Virus record (IMG/VR): IMGVR_UViG_3300028841_000078
Length of the DNA: 64,000 nt
From: a virus
Reading direction: 5' to 3' (one strand)
Positions 3,538 to 63,224 of the stretch are shown here, piece after piece; the first letter of the stretch is position 1; each line of letters starts with the position of its first letter. The notes beneath the pieces were generated by a model. The model was given only the letters and a program-made list of their open reading frames with translations. It did no database searches and was not told the origin of the DNA. A program made the position numbers and the translations under genes.

Positions 3538-4173
3538 TTATTTAGCAGCGAACCACATCAAAATGCCTTGCGCGTCAAAAGTTGCCGCCCATGTGCCGTT
3601 TACCGTGGTCACGGCAGCGCCCTGATCGATGAGCGCGATCAGGGGGCGGGTCGCGTCCGTGCCGGGGCTGCGATCTACGATAGCGATATAGCGGGCGGTG
3701 ATGTTGCTCGATGTCCACGAAGGGTCATTGGCATCCAGCACAGTCACACCCTTACCCGCGCACTCCCATGTCACGCCTGAGTCGGTCACCTCGCCGCCAA
3801 TGGTGGTCGGCCAAGTGGGTTCAACCGATGCGTGCGAGGTGCCTGCGGTCTTGACTCGATACAAATACCCGTTGCCTGTGGTGGGTCGCACCACATAGTC
3901 AGCGGCATAAGCAGTATTAGCGACCCATGTCGTCGCCCATGAGTTCGCCGGGGTATAGGTGATGGTGCAGCCGGTCAGCAATTGCCCGTTGGTCGTGTAG
4001 CCATTGCCGTTAGCAACCTCGTTGGCGGAGATATCGTTCCAGTAATCATCCGTGTCGAGGTTGGGGGTGTAGCTTGTGGTCAACAAGGCTGCGTAGATTG
4101 TGTCGCTATTCCAGTCGATTTCTTTATTCCAAACTTGTGATTGAACCTTTCGATATTGAGTTGCTGTTGCCAT
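3538..4173 (-). CDS. virion protein with inserted carbohydrate-binding-like module
   Basis: 'WVANTAYAADYVVRPTTGNGYLYRVKTAGTS...EPTWPTTIG...DSGVTWEC' is a CBM5/12-like insert common in tail proteins. Confidence 0.6.
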   Translation of the reverse strand: MATATQYRKVQSQVWNKEIDWNSDTIYAALLTTSYTPNLDTDDYWNDISANEVANGNGYTTNGQLLTGCTITYTPANSWATTWVANTAYAADYVVRPTTGNGYLYRVKTAGTSHASVEPTWPTTIGGEVTDSGVTWECAGKGVTVLDANDPSWTSSNITARYIAIVDRSPGTDATRPLIALIDQGAAVTTVNGTWAATFDAQGILMWFAAK

Positions 4174-7759: not shown

Positions 7760-7803
7760 GGTTTTTGTTGCTTACCCTGTCACATCGATGTGACACTGAA
7801 TTC

Positions 7804-11715: not shown

Positions 11716-13167
11716 CTACCTCAGTCGCAACACGCCCACGGCTTGACCGGCTTCCTCGCCCCACTGCATCTCCATCTCCGACTCCATCAATAAGTCCTCA
11801 GTATCAAGCTCTCCTGATCTTGATGCGTCGTTGTAGATCAGATAGCGCAGGCAGTCCGGTCCGTCCACCTCATCATCTTCAGGCTGACCGTTGGCTTTGC
11901 GCGAGTAGCGTTTGGCTTGTTTGATCAGCACAGCGCACTTGTGATCGATTTCAAGCCTAAATTTGCGAAACATCTCGTCCACCAGTTCATTGCCATCCAC
12001 GACCGGGACTTTGGTATCGATGACCGGAAAGCCCGCATCACGAGCGTCTGCCGCGAACTGATTGGCATTGGGGTCAGGTAAAAAGGTGATGTCGCTACGT
12101 GGGCAGGCCCGGATAATCTTTCGCAGGATTTGCTTTGAGGAGATCTGGTCTTGAGTGGCAATTTCGGCAAAGATGCGATAGACCGATTCCACAATCGGGT
12201 CATCGCGCCACTCGACCTTGACGGTGCGCTCATACTTTTGGCACAGCAGCGCAATCGTCCACGCCTCACCCTCACCTTTGTCGAGGCCAATAATGATCTC
12301 CCCGTCCAAGGTCTTGTCATACCCAAACTCGCCCACATGGATATCGGCAAAGTGCGGGAAGATGCGCCCTCCGGTGGGTTCAACTAGCTCCACCAAAATC
12401 TCACGCTTATACGCCGCCTCGCCAATCGTATAAAACAACTCTTTAAGTTGCTTCTCACCAAGCGCCTCATACACCTCCATTGGCCGCACTGGGCGCTTGA
12501 GGGTAATGTCGCGCTGCATGATGGCAAAGCCGATATCTTGGGCGGTGGTGGGGTGGTGCATCACCATCCAGTCAGGCCATTTCTCAGCACGTTCCTTCTC
12601 GTCGGCCATGACAATATCAATCCACCACTTTGATTCCACCCATTCGCTGTATGTTTTTGGGGCGGTGCCCATCCCGGCAAAAAAGCCCATTGTCGTCATC
12701 AACGTGGGGAGAAAGTTGTGCAAGACCTCAGACTTGACCAGTTGAATCTCGTCCACGATGGCCGCGTCATAGGTGTCGCCGCGCCCGACATCGGGGGTAA
12801 TAAATTCAAGTCTGCGCCAGATGGCACCTTCTGGGGCTTCTAAGATACCGTCCTCTGCCGGGGCAAAGCGCCAACCTTTCGCGCCGAACTCCTTGATCAT
12901 GCCCTTACAGTATTTGACGATCTCGCCCCACCCACCGGAGGTGCGTTTTTTGGTGACCGCGCCAAAGGCGAACTCCATTGGCTCGGTAAAGAATGAGGGG
13001 ATAAGTGCGGTGACGACGCTGAAGGTCTTTCCTGACCGACGACCTCCAGCGTCGATAAGTTTTGAGGGGCCTTCCCGCCTAGCTAAATAGCGACGAATCT
13101 GCCGAAAAACTTCCCTTTGGCGGGCGGTCATAGGGGGAGGGGTAATCTTGACTTGCTGTTGCATCAA
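11716..13167 (-). CDS. terL: terminase large subunit
   Basis: Walker A GGRRSGKT, Walker B AAIVDE, nuclease IIGLDKG, C-terminal DDEVDGPDCLRY. Confidence 0.9.
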   Translation of the reverse strand: MMQQQVKITPPPMTARQREVFRQIRRYLARREGPSKLIDAGGRRSGKTFSVVTALIPSFFTEPMEFAFGAVTKKRTSGGWGEIVKYCKGMIKEFGAKGWRFAPAEDGILEAPEGAIWRRLEFITPDVGRGDTYDAAIVDEIQLVKSEVLHNFLPTLMTTMGFFAGMGTAPKTYSEWVESKWWIDIVMADEKERAEKWPDWMVMHHPTTAQDIGFAIMQRDITLKRPVRPMEVYEALGEKQLKELFYTIGEAAYKREILVELVEPTGGRIFPHFADIHVGEFGYDKTLDGEIIIGLDKGEGEAWTIALLCQKYERTVKVEWRDDPIVESVYRIFAEIATQDQISSKQILRKIIRACPRSDITFLPDPNANQFAADARDAGFPVIDTKVPVVDGNELVDEMFRKFRLEIDHKCAVLIKQAKRYSRKANGQPEDDEVDGPDCLRYLIYNDASRSGELDTEDLLMESEMEMQWGEEAGQAVGVLRLR

Positions 13168-14918: not shown

Positions 14919-14947
14919 ATAGTAAGGCATGGCGTTACAAATGTCAA
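14919..14947 (-). promoter_or_regulatory. sigma70 promoter TTGACA-N17-TACTAT (leaderless, RHH gene)
   Basis: Near-perfect consensus; ATG at 14911 lies at the expected TSS. Confidence 0.8.
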
Positions 14948-29020: not shown

Positions 29021-29060
29021 ATCTGTCACATCGATGTGACAGCAATTCTGATTGACCCTA

Positions 29061-29089
29061 TTGACATTTGTTACAAATGTCGCTAATGT
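29061..29089 (+). promoter_or_regulatory. sigma70 promoter of the Y-RNA array, overlapped by inverted repeat GACATTTG-tta-CAAATGTC
   Basis: TTGACA-N17-TAATGT; inverted repeat at 29063-29081. Confidence 0.7.
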
Positions 29090-29100
29090 ATCGCGGGGGT

Positions 29101-29168
29101 AACGCAGTGGTGTAGACGGTGGTTACTTCACATCTACAAAAGGCCCATCGTCGTCCGTTCCCTGTGTT
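29101..29168 (+). ncRNA. Y-RNA-like unit 1 (minimal)
   Basis: Terminal stem AACGCAG/CTGTGTT; conserved TGGTGTA...GTTCC internal loop; helix GACGGTG/CATCGTC; GTTACTTC. Confidence 0.7.
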
Positions 29169-29180
29169 CGTTCGTCTGTG

Positions 29181-29245
29181 AATTGGTGGTGTAGATTGCG
29201 GTTACTTCTTTGGTTGAAAGCCCGCAGTCGCCTAGTTCCCCAATT
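29181..29245 (+). ncRNA. Y-RNA-like unit 2 (minimal)
   Basis: AATTGG/CCAATT; TGGTGTA...GTTCC; GATTGCG/CGCAGTC; GTTACTTC. Confidence 0.7.
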
Positions 29246-29257
29246 GCTTTGTCTCTG

Positions 29258-29347
29258 ACTGGTGGTGAATAAATCGAGTTCTTCGACTCATTATCGGGCT
29301 GGCGAGCAGTGCTCGTTGGCGTGACGCGATTTAGAACGTTCCCCAGT
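29258..29347 (+). ncRNA. Y-RNA-like unit 3 (anticodon-arm-like CAU hairpin)
   Basis: ACTGG/CCAGT; TGGTGAA...GTTCC; TAAATCG/CGATTTA; TTCGA-CTCATTA-TCGGG hairpin. Confidence 0.7.
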
Positions 29348-29358
29348 GTCTGGTTCGT

Positions 29359-29496
29359 AAATCGGTGGTGTATAAGGCGAGTTCTTCCTATGTTAAAGGG
29401 CTGGTCGGAGGTTCAAGTCCTTCCCCGTCCATTCGTGGACGGGTAGCTCAGGTGGTTAGAGCAGCTTGTAACGCGCTTTAGAATGTTCCCCGATTT
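29359..29496 (+). ncRNA. yrlA: YrlA-like Y RNA with circularly permuted tRNA domain
   Basis: AAATCGG/CCGATTT; T arm GGAGG-TTCAAGT-CCTTC; acceptor CCCGTCCA-TTCG-TGGACGGG; D arm GCTC-AGGTGGTTA-GAGC; next to TROVE gene. Confidence 0.85.
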
Positions 29497-29510
29497 TGTT
29501 TCGTGCAATT

Positions 29511-29545
29511 GGGCAGCAGGTATACCTGCTGCCCTTTTTGTTTTT
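29511..29545 (+). terminator. intrinsic terminator between the Y-RNA array and the Ro60 gene
   Basis: GGGCAGCAGG-TATA-CCTGCTGCCC followed by TTTTTGTTTTT. Confidence 0.85.
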
Positions 29546-29561
29546 CACACACACATAAATC

Positions 29562-30941
29562 ATGAAAAAGCCAATCGATCAGCTTGCCGGTGGGTTCGGG
29601 GCAGTAGCGGCCATCCAAACCCCAGAACAAACGCTTCGCCGCTTAGTGATGGCATCGCTCCTATGGGAGAAGTTGGCCTATGAATCGGGCGAATACAACG
29701 CCCTTGCCATCAAAGAGGCCATCTCGAAAGTGCCCGCGCCACAGGTGGCGGCAATTGCGATTGAGGCCCGCGAAAAGCAGCACCTGCGCCACACCCCGCT
29801 CTTCATCGCCGCCCAGATGTGCAAGTTGCCGACGCATCGCCCGTTTGTGGGCGGTGTGCTTGAGAAGATCTGCACTCGCCCCGACATGTTGGGCGACTTT
29901 ATGGCGCTGTATCAGATGGACAACAAAGACGCGCCCATCGCCAAGCAGGTCAAGACCGGCCTAGCCAAAGCCTTTGTCAAGTTCAGCGAGTATCAGCTTC
30001 GCAAATACGCCTCGCGTCAGGGCCAAGTCACCCTGCGTGATGTGATGTTTTTGGTGCATCCCAATCCGATTGAGAAGTGGCAGGTTGAGGCATTCAAGCA
30101 ACTGGCAAACAAAGAACTACCCCCCGCTGAAACGTGGGAGGTCATGCTGAGTTCAGGGGCAGACAAGTGCCGCACGTTCACTCAGTTGGTGCAAGGCGAC
30201 AAGCTGGGCGGCATGGCGCTATTACGCAACCTGCGCGGCATGAAAGAGGCCGGGGTGGATAAGCGCGTGATTCTGGGCGGGCTTGAACGCATGAAAACGG
30301 GCTACCTCTTGCCGATGAACTTTCTCTCCGCCGCCAAGAACGCGCCGGACTTTAGCGGTGCAATCGAACAGGCCATGTATCGCTGCTATGGCACCCAAGA
30401 GAAGCTGCCCGGAACGACCGTGTTCGCGGTGGACCGGTCGGGCAGCATGAATCAGCGCATCAGCGCACGGTCGGAGAATCAGCGCCTCGATGTGGCAATT
30501 GCGATGGCGATTCTGGCGCGGGAACGCTGCGAGAACCCGATCATCTACGCCACGGCAGGTCATGCCGGTCACGCCACAGTCCGGGTTCATCAGCGCGGCT
30601 TCGGATTGGCTGAGGAAATCAAGAACGCGCCCATCGGTGGCGGCGGTATCTATACCCGCCAGTGCCTTGAGTTCATTAGAAAGGACTTGGGCGACACCCA
30701 TGTTGACCGAGTGATCGTGTTCAGTGACAGCCAAGATTGCGACACCAGCCACAAGCTGCCCGCGCCGTTTGGCACCACGAATTACATCGTGGATGTATCG
30801 GCTCACAGCAAGGGCATCAATTACGGCCAGCTTTGGACCGCCGAAATCAGCGGCTGGTCTGATCACTTTCTCGACTACATTTTTGCGCTGGAAGGCATCA
30901 ACACAGTTGTCGATGACACGGGTGACGAAATCGAAGGCTAG
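29562..30941 (+). CDS. rsr: Ro60/Rsr-family TROVE domain RNA-binding protein with vWA domain
   Basis: LRHTPLF, VKTGLAKAFVKFSEYQLRKY, TLRDVMFLVHP, TWEVMLS, LGGMALLRNLR, MIDAS-like DRSGSM, VIVFSDSQ. Confidence 0.9.
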   Translation: MKKPIDQLAGGFGAVAAIQTPEQTLRRLVMASLLWEKLAYESGEYNALAIKEAISKVPAPQVAAIAIEAREKQHLRHTPLFIAAQMCKLPTHRPFVGGVLEKICTRPDMLGDFMALYQMDNKDAPIAKQVKTGLAKAFVKFSEYQLRKYASRQGQVTLRDVMFLVHPNPIEKWQVEAFKQLANKELPPAETWEVMLSSGADKCRTFTQLVQGDKLGGMALLRNLRGMKEAGVDKRVILGGLERMKTGYLLPMNFLSAAKNAPDFSGAIEQAMYRCYGTQEKLPGTTVFAVDRSGSMNQRISARSENQRLDVAIAMAILARERCENPIIYATAGHAGHATVRVHQRGFGLAEEIKNAPIGGGGIYTRQCLEFIRKDLGDTHVDRVIVFSDSQDCDTSHKLPAPFGTTNYIVDVSAHSKGINYGQLWTAEISGWSDHFLDYIFALEGINTVVDDTGDEIEG

Positions 30942-31015
30942 TTAAACAGTCAGTCTAGGCGTGAGTTTAGGGGAACACGGTGAATAATCACCGTGTTCTT
31001 TTTTTAGGAGGCACC

Positions 31016-32706: not shown

Positions 32707-34491
32707 ATGGCGGCAATCGTCGTTGGTGAGGAGCATCTATTCTCTCAAAAGGCCAAGGGGCTGGTGCGGCTGAACAAACACCGCAGCGACACCCTGCCCG
32801 TTGCCTTTATCCCCGGCGGGTCGCACCGTCCGGTGATTTACGGAGAGATGGAGAAGTTCTTCACCCAACACAAGCATCCTGTTTTGTTTGTGCGGCCCTG
32901 CCCTGAATCGCCCAATCACGGCGGCGAGGTGGCGGGCTTTCAGTCTGAGGCTGTCAAGCGCGAGGCATCCATTCAGCAGGTCTGGAAGGTTCGCCAAGCA
33001 ATTGCCAAGAAGAATCTGCGGGCCGACATTGTGGTGATGCCCTATGTCCACGCCGATCTGTCCTGCGTGGTCGCACCGGGCAAATACTACGTGTGGGGAC
33101 TGGGCAACAACGGAGTCACCGCCGGGACAAGCGAGACGGTGGTGATTCCGATCAACCCCAAGAACCCCGGCCATTACTTTCTGTCCGCCGCCGGGTATGA
33201 CCCCAAGACCGTCGAGGTTGAGTTTGTGCGCGACAAGGCCAATCGAAAGGTCTACTGTGTCCAGATTCGTGCCGCCTCCGCCCACTTGGACATCGACCCC
33301 GCGCCCGAAGGAGCGTTGCCGGGGTTTGTCCCCGGCGGCAAGATGACGGTCGTCAAAACTTATCAAGTGAAAGACCTGAATGATCTTGGCGAACTGGAGT
33401 TTTTGAAGGGAACCGACACCGCAGGGCTATTAGTCATTCAGCCCACCGGCTCAATGCTCAGTCACGCGGCAGCGCACTGTCGCGGAGCCAAGATCGCATT
33501 TTGCATCGGGAAACCGGACATCAAGCCCGGAAGTGTCGTGGCCGAACCCGCGTCCGGTTGGCTGGTGGTCGGGGATGTCGAGGCCAAGCCGTATGACCCG
33601 GCCACCTACTGGGCGGACTTTCGGCGCGGCTTTGATGCGCCCCTCATCTGGGAGAGCATGAAACTAGGCACGTTCTTTCATCAGTGGGCCACCAAGCCCC
33701 TAGGCAGTCCAAATCGAGTCGCCTATCTGGGCGGTCGCTTTTGCAAATGGCTGGTGCAAGCGGGCATCACCGCCTTTTGTGGCGAGTCGCGTCACACCGA
33801 TTGTGTCCACAACAAAGGCGACTGGGGCGGGTATCAGATTCACCACCACTATGTCAACATGACCGGAGAACATGAACCACAACGCGCCACGATCTTAAAG
33901 ATGCTGCGCGACAGTCACGCGACCCTGCCCGATCTGTTGAAAGTCGCCCAATGGACCCACCAGATGTTTAGTCTCAGTTGGATGCACTCAATGGGTGGCT
34001 ACAAGTGGCAGATGTGCGCGGCATCGGCCATCAACTCGATTGAGGCGATTATGAAAGGCGACTGCAGCGCGGCCATCACCGCCCTCAACGCGCTTGAGAA
34101 CGGCGTTCACAACGGCGGGAAGCTGTTCAACAAGTTTCATGAGTCGCTGAAGTGGCTGGATATCGCCACAGCCGGGGTCAGCATGGACACAGGCGAAACC
34201 GGGCTTTCATCCGAGATCGCAGAGGTGGCCTTGCTCACCAAGTTCAACGACACCCCGGTAAAAGAATCTTCTATCCAATGGGCGACGACAGCGGCCTTGG
34301 CCGATATCGTCATCCCCAAGATGGGCAATCCTAAAGCGGTGCAGCCATCGGTTACATCGTCGGCGACGTTTACCGACAACGACTTCGCCCAGAAGTTCAA
34401 CGCAGGCGCGATGGCGGCGATGAACAAATCTCAACCAGAGGTTCCACCTAAAAAATCAGCAATGGTCATTCGACCAAAAAAGGGAATATGA
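32707..34491 (+). CDS. PEP-synthase/RPH-type dikinase: ATP-grasp, His-swivel domain, unknown C-domain
   Basis: KAKGLVRL..LPV, LFVRP, GLGNNGVTAG, VEVEF..VYCVQIRA (PPDK_N-like); GSMLSHAAAHCR phospho-His motif. Confidence 0.75.
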   Translation: MAAIVVGEEHLFSQKAKGLVRLNKHRSDTLPVAFIPGGSHRPVIYGEMEKFFTQHKHPVLFVRPCPESPNHGGEVAGFQSEAVKREASIQQVWKVRQAIAKKNLRADIVVMPYVHADLSCVVAPGKYYVWGLGNNGVTAGTSETVVIPINPKNPGHYFLSAAGYDPKTVEVEFVRDKANRKVYCVQIRAASAHLDIDPAPEGALPGFVPGGKMTVVKTYQVKDLNDLGELEFLKGTDTAGLLVIQPTGSMLSHAAAHCRGAKIAFCIGKPDIKPGSVVAEPASGWLVVGDVEAKPYDPATYWADFRRGFDAPLIWESMKLGTFFHQWATKPLGSPNRVAYLGGRFCKWLVQAGITAFCGESRHTDCVHNKGDWGGYQIHHHYVNMTGEHEPQRATILKMLRDSHATLPDLLKVAQWTHQMFSLSWMHSMGGYKWQMCAASAINSIEAIMKGDCSAAITALNALENGVHNGGKLFNKFHESLKWLDIATAGVSMDTGETGLSSEIAEVALLTKFNDTPVKESSIQWATTAALADIVIPKMGNPKAVQPSVTSSATFTDNDFAQKFNAGAMAAMNKSQPEVPPKKSAMVIRPKKGI

Positions 34492-35021
34492 ACACACAAC
34501 CAACCAAAATCGAAAATCAGAACTCCGCTCCAATCTTCACAATGAAGTGGTGGCGTGGCATCTTTATCACCAATGTCACCTGTGGCGGTCGTCAACCCAT
34601 GACGGACTTTGAACATCGAACCGATAAGCCCGATCTGGTCATCGGTGCAGCGGGGCTTGCCAAAGAGACGTACGCCTTTGGGGGCGGGTTTGACTTCATC
34701 AATCGCACCGCCAGACGCGCCGTGTATATCAACTGGCAAGACTTCGGGGTGCCCGACATGGACAAGTCATGGTGGGAGAACCTTTACGAATCCATCGAGC
34801 AGATCAAGCCCCGCCACATTCATGTGCAGTGCATGGGCGGGATGGGCAGGACGGGCACGATCTTGACGATTCTGCTCATCTTGTCGCGCCGGGATAAGAA
34901 GGACGCATTCAAGACGGTGGGCAGCGCGATTCAGTACATCCGGGCGCATGGCAATCCTCATGCGGTCGAAACCCCGGCCCAACGCCAGTACATCGCCGAC
35001 ATGACAGGAACCCAACTATGA
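34488..35021 (+). CDS. CX5R protein-tyrosine/dual-specificity-type phosphatase 1
   Basis: WQDFGVP acid loop; HVQCMGGMGRTGT; AVETPAQ. Confidence 0.85.
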   Translation: MNTQPTKIENQNSAPIFTMKWWRGIFITNVTCGGRQPMTDFEHRTDKPDLVIGAAGLAKETYAFGGGFDFINRTARRAVYINWQDFGVPDMDKSWWENLYESIEQIKPRHIHVQCMGGMGRTGTILTILLILSRRDKKDAFKTVGSAIQYIRAHGNPHAVETPAQRQYIADMTGTQL

Positions 35022-36028
35022 GCAGCCTTGTCAACGGCGATGATGCCGATGACTTCTTTTTTGGCAACGCCACAGGCGACCATGAGAAGTCAGAACCCAC
35101 ATCCACGCCCCTGCCCTTATTTACAGGGCACAAACACGACTCAGGGGTGAACTCAGCCTACACCTTAAGCTGGAGCGGCGGCAACAAAACCAAAGTGACC
35201 GGCGGCGGCAAGATGTATGCGGGGGACTTTAAGCACGACAAGACGATTGACTTTCTCATCTCGGCGGTCGCGCTTGAACCCCAAGCCCACTATGCCATCG
35301 GCGCAGATCTATCCTGCGCCGATGGCATTAGCGGCGTTCGCCATGCCGTGCTGCTCGATTGGCCGGACATGCAGGTGCCAAAAGTGCCGCTGAATTTTTG
35401 GGTCAATCTGATCAAAGACCTATCCACGATTCGGCCACAACACTTACATGTGCAGTGCGCGGGCGGCAACGGGCGCACCGGGACCACCTTAGCCATTCTG
35501 TTGCAGCTTGCAACCGGCGGCTACCCCTCCGTCGAGGTGTTGGTCAAGTCGCTTCGCGCAGGGTACCGTCAGGCGGCGGTCGAAACCAAATCCCAGTTTG
35601 ATTACATTGCTTACGTCTGCAACATCCCGGTCGGCGATGTGAAAGACATGATTCGGAAAGACCCGGTTGTGGTGAGTACGGCCACAAAGAAGCCGGTCAA
35701 AACCCCGCCGCTGGAAGGGCTTAAGAAGTCGGGCACAACCACGACCATTCAACTCTCGCCTGAGAAAGAGAAGATTCGCAAATCGAAATACTTTCTACAG
35801 TTCGATGCCGACTTCACGAGCAATCTACCGATTGACCTAGCGGTGGCTTACTACGAAATCTGGGAGAGCATCGGTAAGCCCATTCTGATCAAGAAGGGCA
35901 ACGTGCCCTATGCCGCCAAGGTGCCCACTGACCGGGTATATCCAGAACACATCCACCTTTACAAGCTGAGTGAGGACAAGCAGTTTTACCTGTCCGTGGC
36001 CCTCGCTCATGTGAACGAGAAGAAATGA
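35018..36028 (+). CDS. CX5R phosphatase 2 with C-terminal extension
   Basis: WPDMQVP; HVQCAGGNGRTGT; AVETKSQ. Confidence 0.85.
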   Translation: MSSLVNGDDADDFFFGNATGDHEKSEPTSTPLPLFTGHKHDSGVNSAYTLSWSGGNKTKVTGGGKMYAGDFKHDKTIDFLISAVALEPQAHYAIGADLSCADGISGVRHAVLLDWPDMQVPKVPLNFWVNLIKDLSTIRPQHLHVQCAGGNGRTGTTLAILLQLATGGYPSVEVLVKSLRAGYRQAAVETKSQFDYIAYVCNIPVGDVKDMIRKDPVVVSTATKKPVKTPPLEGLKKSGTTTTIQLSPEKEKIRKSKYFLQFDADFTSNLPIDLAVAYYEIWESIGKPILIKKGNVPYAAKVPTDRVYPEHIHLYKLSEDKQFYLSVALAHVNEKK

Positions 36029-41094: not shown

Positions 41095-41142
41095 CCTGTC
41101 ACATCGATGTGACAGGCGTTCAGAAACGCAAAACACAAAATC

Positions 41143-63161: not shown

Positions 63162-63224
63162 AGTTCACCCTTATTTTTGTTATTCTGATGACATGTCACA
63201 TCGATGTGACAACAATCAGAATTG

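What the first reader, a model, noticed from the sequence alone, without database searches (positions are those of the whole stretch)
29061..30941. Phage Ro60 gene with a tandem array of four Y-RNA-like units
Seen: a sigma70 promoter (29061-29089), four units (29101-168, 29181-245, 29258-347, 29359-496), a strong terminator (29511-545), then a TROVE+vWA ORF. Each unit folds the same scaffold: terminal stem, conserved internal loop (5' UGGUG(U/A)A, 3' GUUCC), 7-bp helix, bulge or mismatch, GUU helix, then CUUC. The paired sequences differ between units while the pairing is kept, which amounts to covariation within one genome. The distal domains grow from a short loop (units 1-2) to a partial (unit 3) and a complete (unit 4) tRNA mimic. 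Known: bacterial Ro60 (Rsr) binds Y RNAs whose distal module recruits effectors (PNPase in Deinococcus RYPER), and Salmonella rsr-yrlBA lies with rtcBA. Inference: a modular Ro RNP with one protein and four swappable RNA adaptors, made in excess because a terminator separates the RNAs from the protein gene. No RtcB is visible, so the partners may be the downstream phage enzymes or host enzymes.
Basis: partly seen in the sequence, partly recalled or inferred. Interest (0 to 1): 0.92.

Follow-up and report, generated by a model that had tools for sequence, protein, structure and literature searches.

The report
Phage Ro60 gene with four Y RNAs
A wastewater phage carries a gene for the ring-shaped RNA-binding protein Ro60, preceded by four small partner RNAs on one transcript; this is a real example of a known protein–RNA partnership, in a form widespread in phages and not yet annotated.

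Summary
ORF 29562-30941 is a Ro60: it has a TROVE domain, its AlphaFold model matches only Ro60 structures at the top, and it carries a DRSGS MIDAS motif. Upstream lie four tandem units (29098-29170, 29177-29248, 29253-29351, 29356-29498). A strong terminator (29511-29545) follows them.

All four units share one "handle": a terminal stem, GGUG(U/A)A facing GUUCC, and a 7-8 bp helix. The paired bases differ between units but pairing is kept. Covariance models built here find the same RNA beside the same Ro60 clade in over 100 phage and MAG loci. All 187 hits lie on the Ro strand, and covariation is 0.87 against 0.23 for shuffles. Arrays of 2-6 units are common, so four is not exceptional.

Unit 4 is a YrlA-like tRNA mimic. 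Units 1-2 are short, like YrlB. Unit 3 is a decayed tRNA-like unit: intact in one relative, absent in another.

This is a Ro60/Y-RNA particle, a known kind (Chen 2014; Thermus phage phiLo 2025). The handle misses the published GNCGAA motif and Rfam YrlA's threshold, and there is an anticodon-arm-like hairpin. I therefore class it as a new variant.

No expression data were found. The promoter, RNA processing, RNA excess and partner enzymes are all inferred. This scan has flagged similar phage Ro60-like gene/RNA-array loci many times on other DNA.

The parts
29024..29041 (.). One copy of an 18-nt perfect palindrome that is dispersed across the phage genome. It lies between the upstream ORF's stop codon and the Y-RNA promoter. 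Role unknown; probably not part of the RNP.
   Evidence: 18 copies in the window against 0 expected. Folds as a hairpin at -10.2 kcal/mol.
29061..29089 (+). Putative sigma70-type promoter: TTGACA, 17 nt, TAATGT. It overlaps a 19-nt palindrome (29063-29081) that looks like an operator. The predicted start falls just before unit 1.
   Evidence: Read from the sequence. The -35 and the palindrome are conserved in L001 and L003. The consensus scan does not call it because the -10 matches 3 of 6. TTGACATTTGT occurs only here and at 14937-14947.
29098..29170 (+). Unit 1: a short, YrlB-like Y RNA. It consists of the handle plus a small unpaired or hairpin distal part.
   Evidence: R1 61.6 bits, E 1e-13. 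R2 46.5 bits. Folds alone. Compensatory changes against L001 and L003.
29177..29248 (+). Unit 2: a short, YrlB-like Y RNA. It consists of the handle plus a small hairpin (UUC-UUUGGUU-GAA).
   Evidence: R1 70.9 bits, E 3e-16. R2 43.9 bits. Folds alone.
29253..29351 (+). Unit 3: the handle is intact, but the distal part is two hairpins with no T or D arm. It is a decayed or remodelled tRNA-like unit.
   Evidence: R2 39.0 bits, E 9e-7. R1 20.9 bits with filters off. The orthologue in L003 (3648-3791) is a full tRNA-like unit at 108 bits, and L001 lacks the unit. Three compensatory pair changes in helix 2 against L003.
29356..29498 (+). Unit 4: a YrlA-like Y RNA. In order it has the handle, an anticodon-arm-like hairpin UCCU-AUGUUAA-AGGG (29387-29401), a variable-loop-like UGGUC (29403-29407), a T arm, a 7-bp acceptor-like hairpin closed by UUCG, and a D arm.
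   Evidence: R2 120 bits, E 3e-26. Rfam YrlA RF02553 local match at 29400-29465: 39.4 bits, E 3.9e-7, below the gathering score of 69. Structure and covariation. Hairpin register test.
29511..29545 (+). Intrinsic terminator between the RNA array and the Ro60 gene: a 10-bp GC-rich stem, a 4-nt loop and a T-run.
   Evidence: Found by the scan. Folds at -23.4 kcal/mol, z -5.5. Conserved in L001 and L003 with a compensatory G-C to A-U change in the stem.
29562..30941 (+). Ro60 orthologue: a TROVE/HEAT-repeat ring plus a vWA domain with MIDAS motif DRSGS at residues 291-295. There is no Shine-Dalgarno; the leader is CA-rich.
   Evidence: Pfam TROVE 55 bits. PDB sequence search finds only phage phiLo Ro60, E 9e-13. 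AlphaFold model pLDDT 83, pTM 0.80. The top 13 Foldseek hits are all Ro60: 9kop TM 0.68, 2nvo TM 0.63, then 1yvp and 9nen. Invariant D291, S293, G294, S295 in 30 homologues.
30974..31006 (+). Second intrinsic terminator, closing the Ro60 transcription unit. The next gene starts at ATG 31017 behind AGGAGG.
   Evidence: Folds at -20.6 kcal/mol, z -7.3, followed by seven U.

Best explanation
This is a phage-encoded Ro60/Y-RNA ribonucleoprotein module.

Transcription. One unit runs from a probable promoter at 29061-29089, through four tandem Y-RNA-type units, to a strong terminator at 29511-29545. Read-through would continue into the Ro60 gene and stop at a second terminator at 30974-31006.

The handle. 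Each RNA carries the same handle: a terminal stem formed by its 5' and 3' ends; the conserved 5' GGUG(U/A)A(G/U) facing 3' GUUCC; a 7-8 bp helix; and then (U/G)U(A/U)CUUC. This handle is a divergent form of the GNCGAA-containing Ro-binding module of bacterial YrlA/YrlB. It is inferred to be what the Ro60 ring binds.

The distal parts. They differ between units:
- Units 1-2 have minimal distal parts.
- Unit 3 has two hairpins, a decayed tRNA-like body.
- Unit 4 is a full tRNA look-alike. It has T, D and acceptor-like arms and, in exact tRNA register, an anticodon-arm-like hairpin with GUU.

By analogy with Deinococcus RYPER and Thermus phage phiLo, the distal modules are inferred to tether Ro60 to other factors during infection. 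Candidates are host PNPase and proteins that recognise tRNA. Alternatively they may gate Ro60's cavity.

Shown: the protein's family and fold, the RNA structures, their covariation, and their strict linkage to this Ro60 clade.
Inferred: binding, processing into four RNAs, stoichiometry and partners.
For: Protein:
- TROVE above the Pfam cut-off.
- The only PDB sequence relative is phage phiLo Ro60.
- The fold search returns Ro60 structures as its top 13 hits.

RNA:
- All four units fold into one scaffold.
- Helices 1 and 2 differ in sequence but stay paired in all four units.

Two syntenic relatives (Ro 80% and 75% identical) keep the array, with compensatory changes.

Family level:
- R1 gives 117 hits and R2 gives 187 hits in about 120 loci that carry this Ro60 clade. 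Every hit is on the Ro strand and next to the gene.
- Short units: 94.2% of cells paired against 61.8% shuffled; covariation 0.869 against 0.230; slid registers at most 0.17.
- Long units: 97.1% against 65.3%; 0.875 against 0.230; 28 of 31 pairs show double changes.

Other support:
- Unit 4's core matches Rfam YrlA locally at E 3.9e-7.
- Published precedents: YrlA and YrlB lie upstream of rsr and are cut from one precursor in M. smegmatis; YrlA occurs in 22 phages (PMC4201824); phiLo Ro60 binds two upstream Yrl RNAs and host PNPase (PMC12135203).
- The crAss001 homologue is an early gene (PMC8375218).
Against: - There is no expression or binding evidence. The public runs that hold this DNA are metagenomes, and the runs labelled RNA-Seq look like DNA.
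- Rfam YrlA's gathering score is not reached: 39.4 against 69 bits, with only the tRNA-like core aligned.
- The published strict motif GNCGAAN0-1G is absent from the window units and present in only 3 of 91 family units.
- The -10 element is weak and the scanner calls no promoter.
- Unit 3 may be a decaying copy.
- The Ro60 ORF has no visible ribosome-binding site, so how it is translated is unclear.
Confidence: 0.85

Rival explanations
1. The array is mainly a cis-acting autoregulatory leader of the Ro60 mRNA. Ro60 would bind its own handles in the 5' leader and modulate termination at 29511-29545 or translation of the ORF that lacks a Shine-Dalgarno. The units would not act as free RNAs.
For: - The array, the terminator and the ORF lie on one strand, with only 17 nt between the T-run and the ATG.
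- No promoter or Shine-Dalgarno is visible in between.
- A terminator recurs at this position in 8 of 29 upstream-array loci.
Against: - In many relatives, including the crAss-like phages, the units lie downstream of Ro60 or hundreds of nt away, where they cannot be a leader.
- 21 of 29 upstream arrays have no terminator there.
- The conserved tRNA-like bodies, with covarying T, D and acceptor arms, have no role in this model.
- Characterised Y RNAs are stable trans-acting RNAs (PMC4201824).
Confidence: 0.07
2. The units are tRNA-derived decoys or spare parts that work without Ro60. For example, they might soak up host tRNA-cleaving defence nucleases or tRNA-modifying enzymes. On this reading the adjacency to Ro60 reflects a shared early operon, not a complex.
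For: - Unit 4 and about 45% of long units in the family have a 5-bp, 7-nt-loop hairpin in exact tRNA register, with U33, R37 and A38.
- Anticodon-like triplets vary between phages: GUU, GCU, UUU, UCG and others.
- In many relatives the RNAs sit among true tRNA genes.
Against: - The most conserved part of every unit is the handle, not the tRNA-like body. Units 1-2 have the handle only.
- The RNA family was found beside this Ro60 clade in about 100 of 120 loci fetched through the protein.
- The ARAGORN test for a complete tRNA is weak: it still% with a shuffled anticodon arm.
Confidence: 0.05
3. The region holds decayed tRNA genes or chance hairpins in an intergenic spacer, with no function.
For: - ARAGORN and Rfam at gathering thresholds find nothing here.
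- Single-unit folding z-scores are modest, at -1.7 to -2.5.
- Unit 3 looks degenerate.
Against: - Covariation is strong in every helix across dozens of divergent loci.
- All 187 R2 hits are on the Ro strand.
- The array is conserved in relatives whose Ro60 is only 75-80% identical.
Confidence: 0.02

Closest known systems
Bacterial and phage Rsr (Ro60) with YrlA/YrlB Y RNAs (Chen et al. 2014, PMC4201824; Rfam RF02553; YrlA structure, bioRxiv 10.1101/312249)
   Same: - The RNAs lie next to the Ro60 gene on the same strand.
- The 5' and 3' ends form a long stem with a conserved purine-rich motif near the 5' end.
- One RNA carries T-arm, acceptor-like hairpin and D-arm modules in the same order.
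- It is accompanied by shorter YrlB-like RNAs.
- In M. smegmatis the two RNAs lie upstream of rsr and come from one precursor.
   Different: - The handle reads GGUG(U/A)A(G/U), not GNCGAAN0-1G.
- Rfam's model aligns only positions 24-84 and scores 39 against a gathering score of 69.
- There are four units rather than two.
- An anticodon-arm-like closed hairpin stands in tRNA register, whereas S. [quoted passage not shown]
Thermus phage phiLo Ro60 with Yrl1/Yrl2 (PMC12135203; PDB 9KOP, 9L5Y)
   Same: - It is the closest solved relative by sequence (E 9e-13) and by fold (TM 0.68).
- It is phage-encoded.
- Its Y-like RNAs lie upstream of the gene.
- It is reported to bind host PNPase in a RYPER-like complex.
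   Different: - Only 21-22% identity.
- Two RNAs, defined by a CGAA motif; that paper nowhere uses the term 'tRNA-like' (0 occurrences in its main text).
- Here there are four units, with a different handle consensus and a tRNA-like unit.
Deinococcus radiodurans Rsr-Yrn1-PNPase (RYPER) and the four small RNAs upstream of rsr
   Same: - Several small RNAs are encoded upstream of the Ro60 gene.
- The RNA is modular: a Ro-binding stem plus an effector-binding distal module with a T-arm-like loop.
   Different: - It is a cellular stress-response system, not a phage one.
- PNPase recruitment is shown there and only inferred here.
- There is no sequence similarity between the RNAs.
crAss001 gp96 and other 'TROVE domain-containing proteins' of cultured phages (Bacteroides, Xanthomonas, Rhizobium, Brevundimonas, Caulobacter, Vibrio phages)
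   Same: - Same Ro60 clade: 40-51% identity over the full length.
- My models hit unannotated RNAs beside the gene in the crAss001 contig (L017).
   Different: - In crAss-like phages the RNAs lie downstream of the gene and near tRNA genes.
- They score lower with my models.
- No RNA is annotated or described there. PMC8375218 calls gp96 only 'a possible ribonucleoprotein component'.

Membership tests
Ro60 / Rsr (TROVE2) proteins | TROVE domain (PF05731) above the curated threshold | tested here: met
   55 bits against a cut-off of 23, E 1e-14. Also phrog_850 at E 1.5e-23 over residues 13-396.
Ro60 / Rsr (TROVE2) proteins | Ring of HEAT-like helical repeats closed by a vWA domain (the overall Ro60 fold) | tested here: met
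   AlphaFold model pLDDT 83.4, pTM 0.80, with 17 helices followed by an alpha/beta domain. The top 13 Foldseek PDB hits are all Ro60: 9kop TM 0.68, E 5e-18; 2nvo TM 0.63; then 1yvp, 2i91 and 9nen.
Ro60 / Rsr (TROVE2) proteins | MIDAS motif DxSxS in the vWA domain | tested here: met
   DRSGS at residues 291-295. D291, S293, G294 and S295 are invariant in 30 homologues. Pfam VWA_2 itself is below its cut-off, at 20 against 27 bits.
Y RNAs (general) | An RNA of about 70-150 nt whose 5' and 3' ends pair into a long stem interrupted by a conserved internal loop or bulge, encoded near Ro60 | tested here: met
   Single-unit folds. Covariation of the terminal stem and helix 2 in 56 and 44 homologues. 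All hits lie next to Ro60 and on its strand.
Y RNAs (general) | Physical association with Ro60 and Ro60-dependent stability | not testable with these tools
   Needs a pulldown or EMSA, or a Ro60 knockout. No RNA data were found.
YrlA (Rfam RF02553) | Score at or above the Rfam gathering threshold (69 bits) | tested here: not met
   39.4 bits, E 3.9e-7, with model positions 24-84 of 114 only. No hit at gathering in the window or in 20 relatives.
YrlA (Chen et al. 2014) | tRNA-like module: a T stem-loop, an acceptor-like closed stem and a D stem-loop, in that order | tested here: met
   Unit 4 reads GGAGGUUCAAGUCCUUCC, then CCGUCCA-UUCG-UGGACGG, then GCUCAGGUGGUUAGAGC. The three arms covary in 44 homologues at 97-100% paired. 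This holds for unit 4 only; units 1-3 lack the module.
YrlA/YrlB (Chen et al. 2014) | GNCGAAN0-1G motif near the 5' end | tested here: not met
   The window units read GGUGUAG (units 1 and 2), GGUGAAU (unit 3) and GGUGUAU (unit 4). The strict motif occurs in 3 of 91 family units; the relaxed form GN[CU]G[AU]A occurs in 61 of 91. The position in the RNA is the same, but the sequence is a variant.

The most novel reading that the evidence does not exclude
In this phage clade the Ro60 ring may present a panel of adaptor RNAs. The long members would be complete, circularly permuted tRNAs: acceptor closed by a loop, the handle inserted at the D/anticodon junction, and a true anticodon-arm mimic (GUU, Asn-like, in this window). 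The particle would then act on the host's tRNA-directed machinery. It could work as a decoy or sensor for anticodon nucleases of anti-phage defence, or as a tether bringing PNPase or repair enzymes to damaged tRNAs. The choice of anticodon-like loop would be tuned to the host's defences.
Probability: 0.1. Interest if true: 0.8.

Novelty: new variant of a known kind. Interest (0 to 1): 0.42.

Why it matters
Ro60/Y-RNA particles are studied in animals and a few bacteria as RNA quality-control machines and as autoantigens. Their role in phages has been opened by only one biochemical study (phiLo, 2025).

This locus is a clean, compact example: promoter, four RNAs, terminator, Ro60, terminator. 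It belongs to a large Ro60 clade carried mostly by phages, which includes model phages such as crAss001. In that clade the partner RNAs are neither annotated nor caught by Rfam.

The covariance models built here would allow these RNAs to be annotated widely. The natural variation at unit 3 (full, decayed or absent) and the anticodon-like loops offer testable handles on what the distal modules do. For this single window, however, the finding is an instance of an established partnership, not a new principle.

Tried and rejected
- Rfam at gathering thresholds gave no hit on the window or on 20 relatives.
- ARAGORN found no tRNA or tmRNA in the window.
- blastn of the locus against GenBank phages gave no match.
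- The first viral-contig scan with the single protein found nothing. The scan with a protein alignment worked.
- No whole genome is held for this window.
- Expression: the runs holding this DNA are bioreactor, wastewater and sludge metagenomes. Four were laid on the locus. Their contigs cover coding and non-coding parts alike, so there is no evidence on RNA ends or abundance.
- R1 cannot span unit 4 because the unit is too long. R2 solved that.
- In-silico de-permutation followed by ARAGORN of 27 long units as tRNAs (Asn-GUU for unit 4). A control with a shuffled anticodon arm is still called in 68% of cases. I therefore do not count this as evidence for the anticodon arm. The register test is the better one.
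- The 'GUU helix' after helix 2 shows no consistent pairing across the family.
- The downstream genes gave no Pfam or PHROG clue, apart from two cysteine-phosphatase (PTP/DSP) paralogues at 34488-36028. There is no evidence that they are Ro60 partners.
- No RtcB or PNPase was seen among the scanned ORFs.
- I did not use complex prediction, because it does not test protein-RNA pairs.
Full report
**What is in the sequence.**
The ORF at 29562-30941 (+, 459 aa) matches TROVE PF05731 at 55 bits against a cut-off of 23. It matches VWA_2 only weakly. It also matches PHROG 850, 'RNA-binding protein', at E 1.5e-23.

A sequence search of the PDB finds only the Ro60 of Thermus phage phiLo (9KOP/9L5Y), at E 9e-13 over the whole length. 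An AlphaFold2 model built from 30 homologues has pLDDT 83.4 and pTM 0.80. The top 13 Foldseek hits for that model are all Ro60 structures: phiLo at TM 0.68, Deinococcus Rsr at 0.63, then Xenopus and human Ro60. The vWA domain carries the MIDAS motif DRSGS at residues 291-295, and these residues are invariant in 30 homologues. The protein is therefore a Ro60, of a divergent and short type.

**The RNA region.**
Upstream of the gene lie a perfect TTGACA (29061-66), a 17-nt spacer and TAATGT (29084-89). Four units follow, and then a hairpin with a T-run at 29511-29545.
- The scanner calls the terminator. It folds at -23.4 kcal/mol, z -5.5.
- The scanner does not call the promoter, because the -10 matches only 3 of 6 positions.
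- A second strong terminator follows the Ro60 gene at 30974-31006 (-20.6 kcal/mol, z -7.3).
- The next gene starts at ATG 31017 behind AGGAGG.
- The Ro60 ORF has no Shine-Dalgarno. It sits 17 nt after the T-run, behind CACACACACAUAAAUC.

Each unit folds on its own into the same scaffold. The scaffold is a terminal stem of 5-7 pairs, a bulged U, and G-G paired with C-C. Next comes an internal loop with 5' UG(U/A)A facing 3' ...GUU, followed by a helix of 7-8 pairs. The distal part follows that helix. In a model-guided alignment the two helices use different sequences in all four units and remain paired.

**Close relatives.**
Two syntenic contigs encode Ro60 proteins that are 80% and 75% identical (L001, L003). 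Both keep the promoter, the array, the terminator and the CA-rich leader.
- L001 has three units and lacks unit 3.
- L003 has four units, and its unit 3 is a full tRNA-like RNA (108 bits with my model).
- The window's unit 3 keeps the handle, with three compensatory pair changes against L003. It has lost the T and D arms.
- The terminator stem also shows a compensatory G-C to A-U change.

**The family.**
Using an alignment of 30 Ro60 homologues I fetched 80 viral contigs and 36 MAG contigs that encode this clade. Many of the viral contigs are about 100 kb. A tblastn search of GenBank phages shows that the clade includes crAss001 gp96 (49.6% identity). It also includes 'TROVE domain-containing proteins' of Xanthomonas, Rhizobium, Brevundimonas, Caulobacter and Vibrio phages.

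I built two covariance models. R1 comes from 17 short units and R2 from 19 long units.
- R1 gives 82 + 35 hits and R2 gives 132 + 55 hits.
- Every hit is on the Ro60 strand, directly upstream or downstream of the gene.
- Within the 64-kb window, R2 finds exactly the four units and nothing else.

Pair counts are shown below.

| Alignment | Units | Cells paired, observed / shuffled | Covariation, observed / shuffled | Slid registers | Pairs with double changes |
|---|---|---|---|---|---|
| Short units | 56 | 94.2% / 61.8% | 0.869 / 0.230 | ≤0.17 | all 13 |
| Long units | 44 | 97.1% / 65.3% | 0.875 / 0.230 | ≤0.19 | 28 of 31 |

These alignments are fitted to the models. Even so, the gap to the slid and shuffled controls is too wide, and the strand bias too complete, to be an artefact.

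Arrays of two to six units are common. L074 has six, L089 five, and L003, L060, L062, L064 and L105 four each. Four units is therefore ordinary for the clade.

**Relation to known Y RNAs.**
Chen et al. 2014 (PMC4201824) found YrlA next to Ro60 in 254 bacteria and 22 phages. They defined a GNCGAAN0-1G motif near the 5' end. They showed that M. smegmatis YrlA and YrlB lie upstream of rsr and come from one precursor. They also recalled four small RNAs upstream of Deinococcus rsr. The phiLo paper (PMC12135203) describes two Y-like RNAs upstream of a phage Ro60 and a RYPER-like complex with host PNPase. The kind of system is therefore known, phage context included.

The differences here are these:
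- Rfam YrlA aligns only to the tRNA-like core of unit 4 (positions 24-84 of 114). It scores 39.4 bits against a gathering score of 69, at E 3.9e-7.
- A consensus-like relative behaves the same way.
- At the place of GNCGAA the handle reads GGUGUAG, GGUGAAU or GGUGUAU.
- The strict motif occurs in 3 of 91 family units, and a relaxed form GN[CU]G[AU]A in 61 of 91.
I checked it.

**The tRNA-like body.**
Unit 4 has a T arm, a 7-bp acceptor-like hairpin closed by UUCG, and a D arm. In addition, the 17 nt that end exactly 5 nt before the T arm form UCCU-AUGUUAA-AGGG.

I tested this register across the family without selecting for pairing.
- 17 of 38 long units have at least 4 of 5 pairs in this register. 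In registers shifted by 1-3 nt, only 2-6 units do.
- The loops show U at position 33 in 14 of 17, a purine at 37 in 15 of 17, and A at 38 in 14 of 17.
- Partner shuffling never reaches the observed pairing (0 of 1000).

About half of the long units, including the window's, thus carry a hairpin with anticodon-arm geometry. It is followed by a class-I-like variable loop (NGGUC). The solved S. Typhimurium YrlA has no anticodon loop (bioRxiv 10.1101/312249).

ARAGORN of 27 de-permuted units as tRNAs, with Asn-GUU for unit 4. It also% of controls whose anticodon arm was shuffled. I give that test little weight.

**What is inferred rather than shown.**
- The promoter. Its -35 and an overlapping 19-nt palindrome are conserved, but its -10 is weak.
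- Processing of the precursor into four RNAs. The linkers are only 4-8 nt long.
- An excess of RNA over protein caused by the terminator. A terminator stands at this place in 8 of 29 upstream-array loci, or 5 of 26 outside this subclade.
- All partner proteins.

No RtcB or PNPase is present among the ORFs scanned. The genes downstream of Ro60 are conserved only in the two close relatives. Apart from two PTP/DSP-type phosphatases they give no clue.

Public runs place the phage in bioreactor, wastewater and activated-sludge metagenomes. They give no usable RNA evidence. The only expression data for the clade come from the literature: crAss001's TROVE gene is an early gene (PMC8375218).

**Phage context.**
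The window carries a large terminase (11716-13167, -), a minor tail protein, a DnaB-like helicase and a primase. The contig is about 68 kb.

**Verdict.**
The core of the interpretation, a phage Ro60 with Y-RNA partners, is well supported by comparative evidence. The adaptor-panel, stoichiometry and partner ideas are untested.

I do not file the RNAs under Rfam YrlA, because two of its defining tests fail. They work like YrlA and YrlB and are plainly related to them. I class the finding as a new variant of a known kind.

The earlier-findings index of this scan lists 235 notes on phage Ro60-like genes with RNA arrays on other DNA. I did not use that to set the score.

Noticed in passing
window, 18 sites including 1009-1026, 7778-7795, 29024-29041, 41097-41114 and 63194-63211: The 18-nt perfect palindrome TGTCACATCGATGTGACA occurs 18 times with at most 1 mismatch, against 0 expected by chance. 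One copy sits just upstream of the Y-RNA promoter. L001 keeps it at the same place. Assembly contigs of other runs break exactly there.
   Followed up: partly
window 29063-29081 and 14937-14947(-): The Y-RNA promoter's -35 is embedded in a 19-nt palindrome, GACATTTGT-T-ACAAATGTC. L001 and L003 keep it as a palindrome even though the inner A/T bases are swapped, which looks like an operator. TTGACATTTGT occurs only once more in the window, at 14937-14947 on the minus strand.
   Followed up: partly
L123 2871-3777 (crAss001, MH675552.1 about 95964-96870); L017 4145-4375: Cultured phage crAss001 has a 900-nt unannotated gap right after its TROVE gene gp96. My RNA models and an over-long Rfam 'tRNA' match fall there. 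These are probably unannotated Y-like RNAs in a model gut phage.
   Followed up: partly
window 29387-29401; family alignment A6: A hairpin with exact anticodon-arm geometry (5 bp, 7-nt loop with U33, R37 and A38, ending 5 nt before the T arm) is present in 17 of 38 long units. The anticodon-like triplets vary: GUU, GCU, UUU, UCG, UGG, GAU, UCC and others. The window's unit 4 shows GUU.
   Followed up: yes
window 34488-35021 and 35018-36028: Two adjacent cysteine-phosphatase (Y_phosphatase / PTP-SAK) paralogues lie 3.5 kb downstream of Ro60. One is conserved at the same place in L001 and L003. Some enzymes of this superfamily act on RNA 5' ends, but nothing links these two to Ro60.
   Followed up: no
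window 29546-29564: The Ro60 ORF has no Shine-Dalgarno. Its 16-nt leader, CACACACACATAAATC, is conserved in both relatives. The next gene (ATG 31017) has a canonical AGGAGG.
   Followed up: no
L005 3743-3999 (a contig with ordinary bacterial genes, GCA_965193525.1): A called 62-aa ORF on the opposite strand, upstream of a TROVE gene, overlaps two Y-RNA hits (R1 at 3786-3863, R2 at 3870-3999). It is probably a spurious gene call over the RNAs. The neighbouring genes (HisRS, YoeB/YefM) look bacterial, so the module also occurs outside phages.
   Followed up: no
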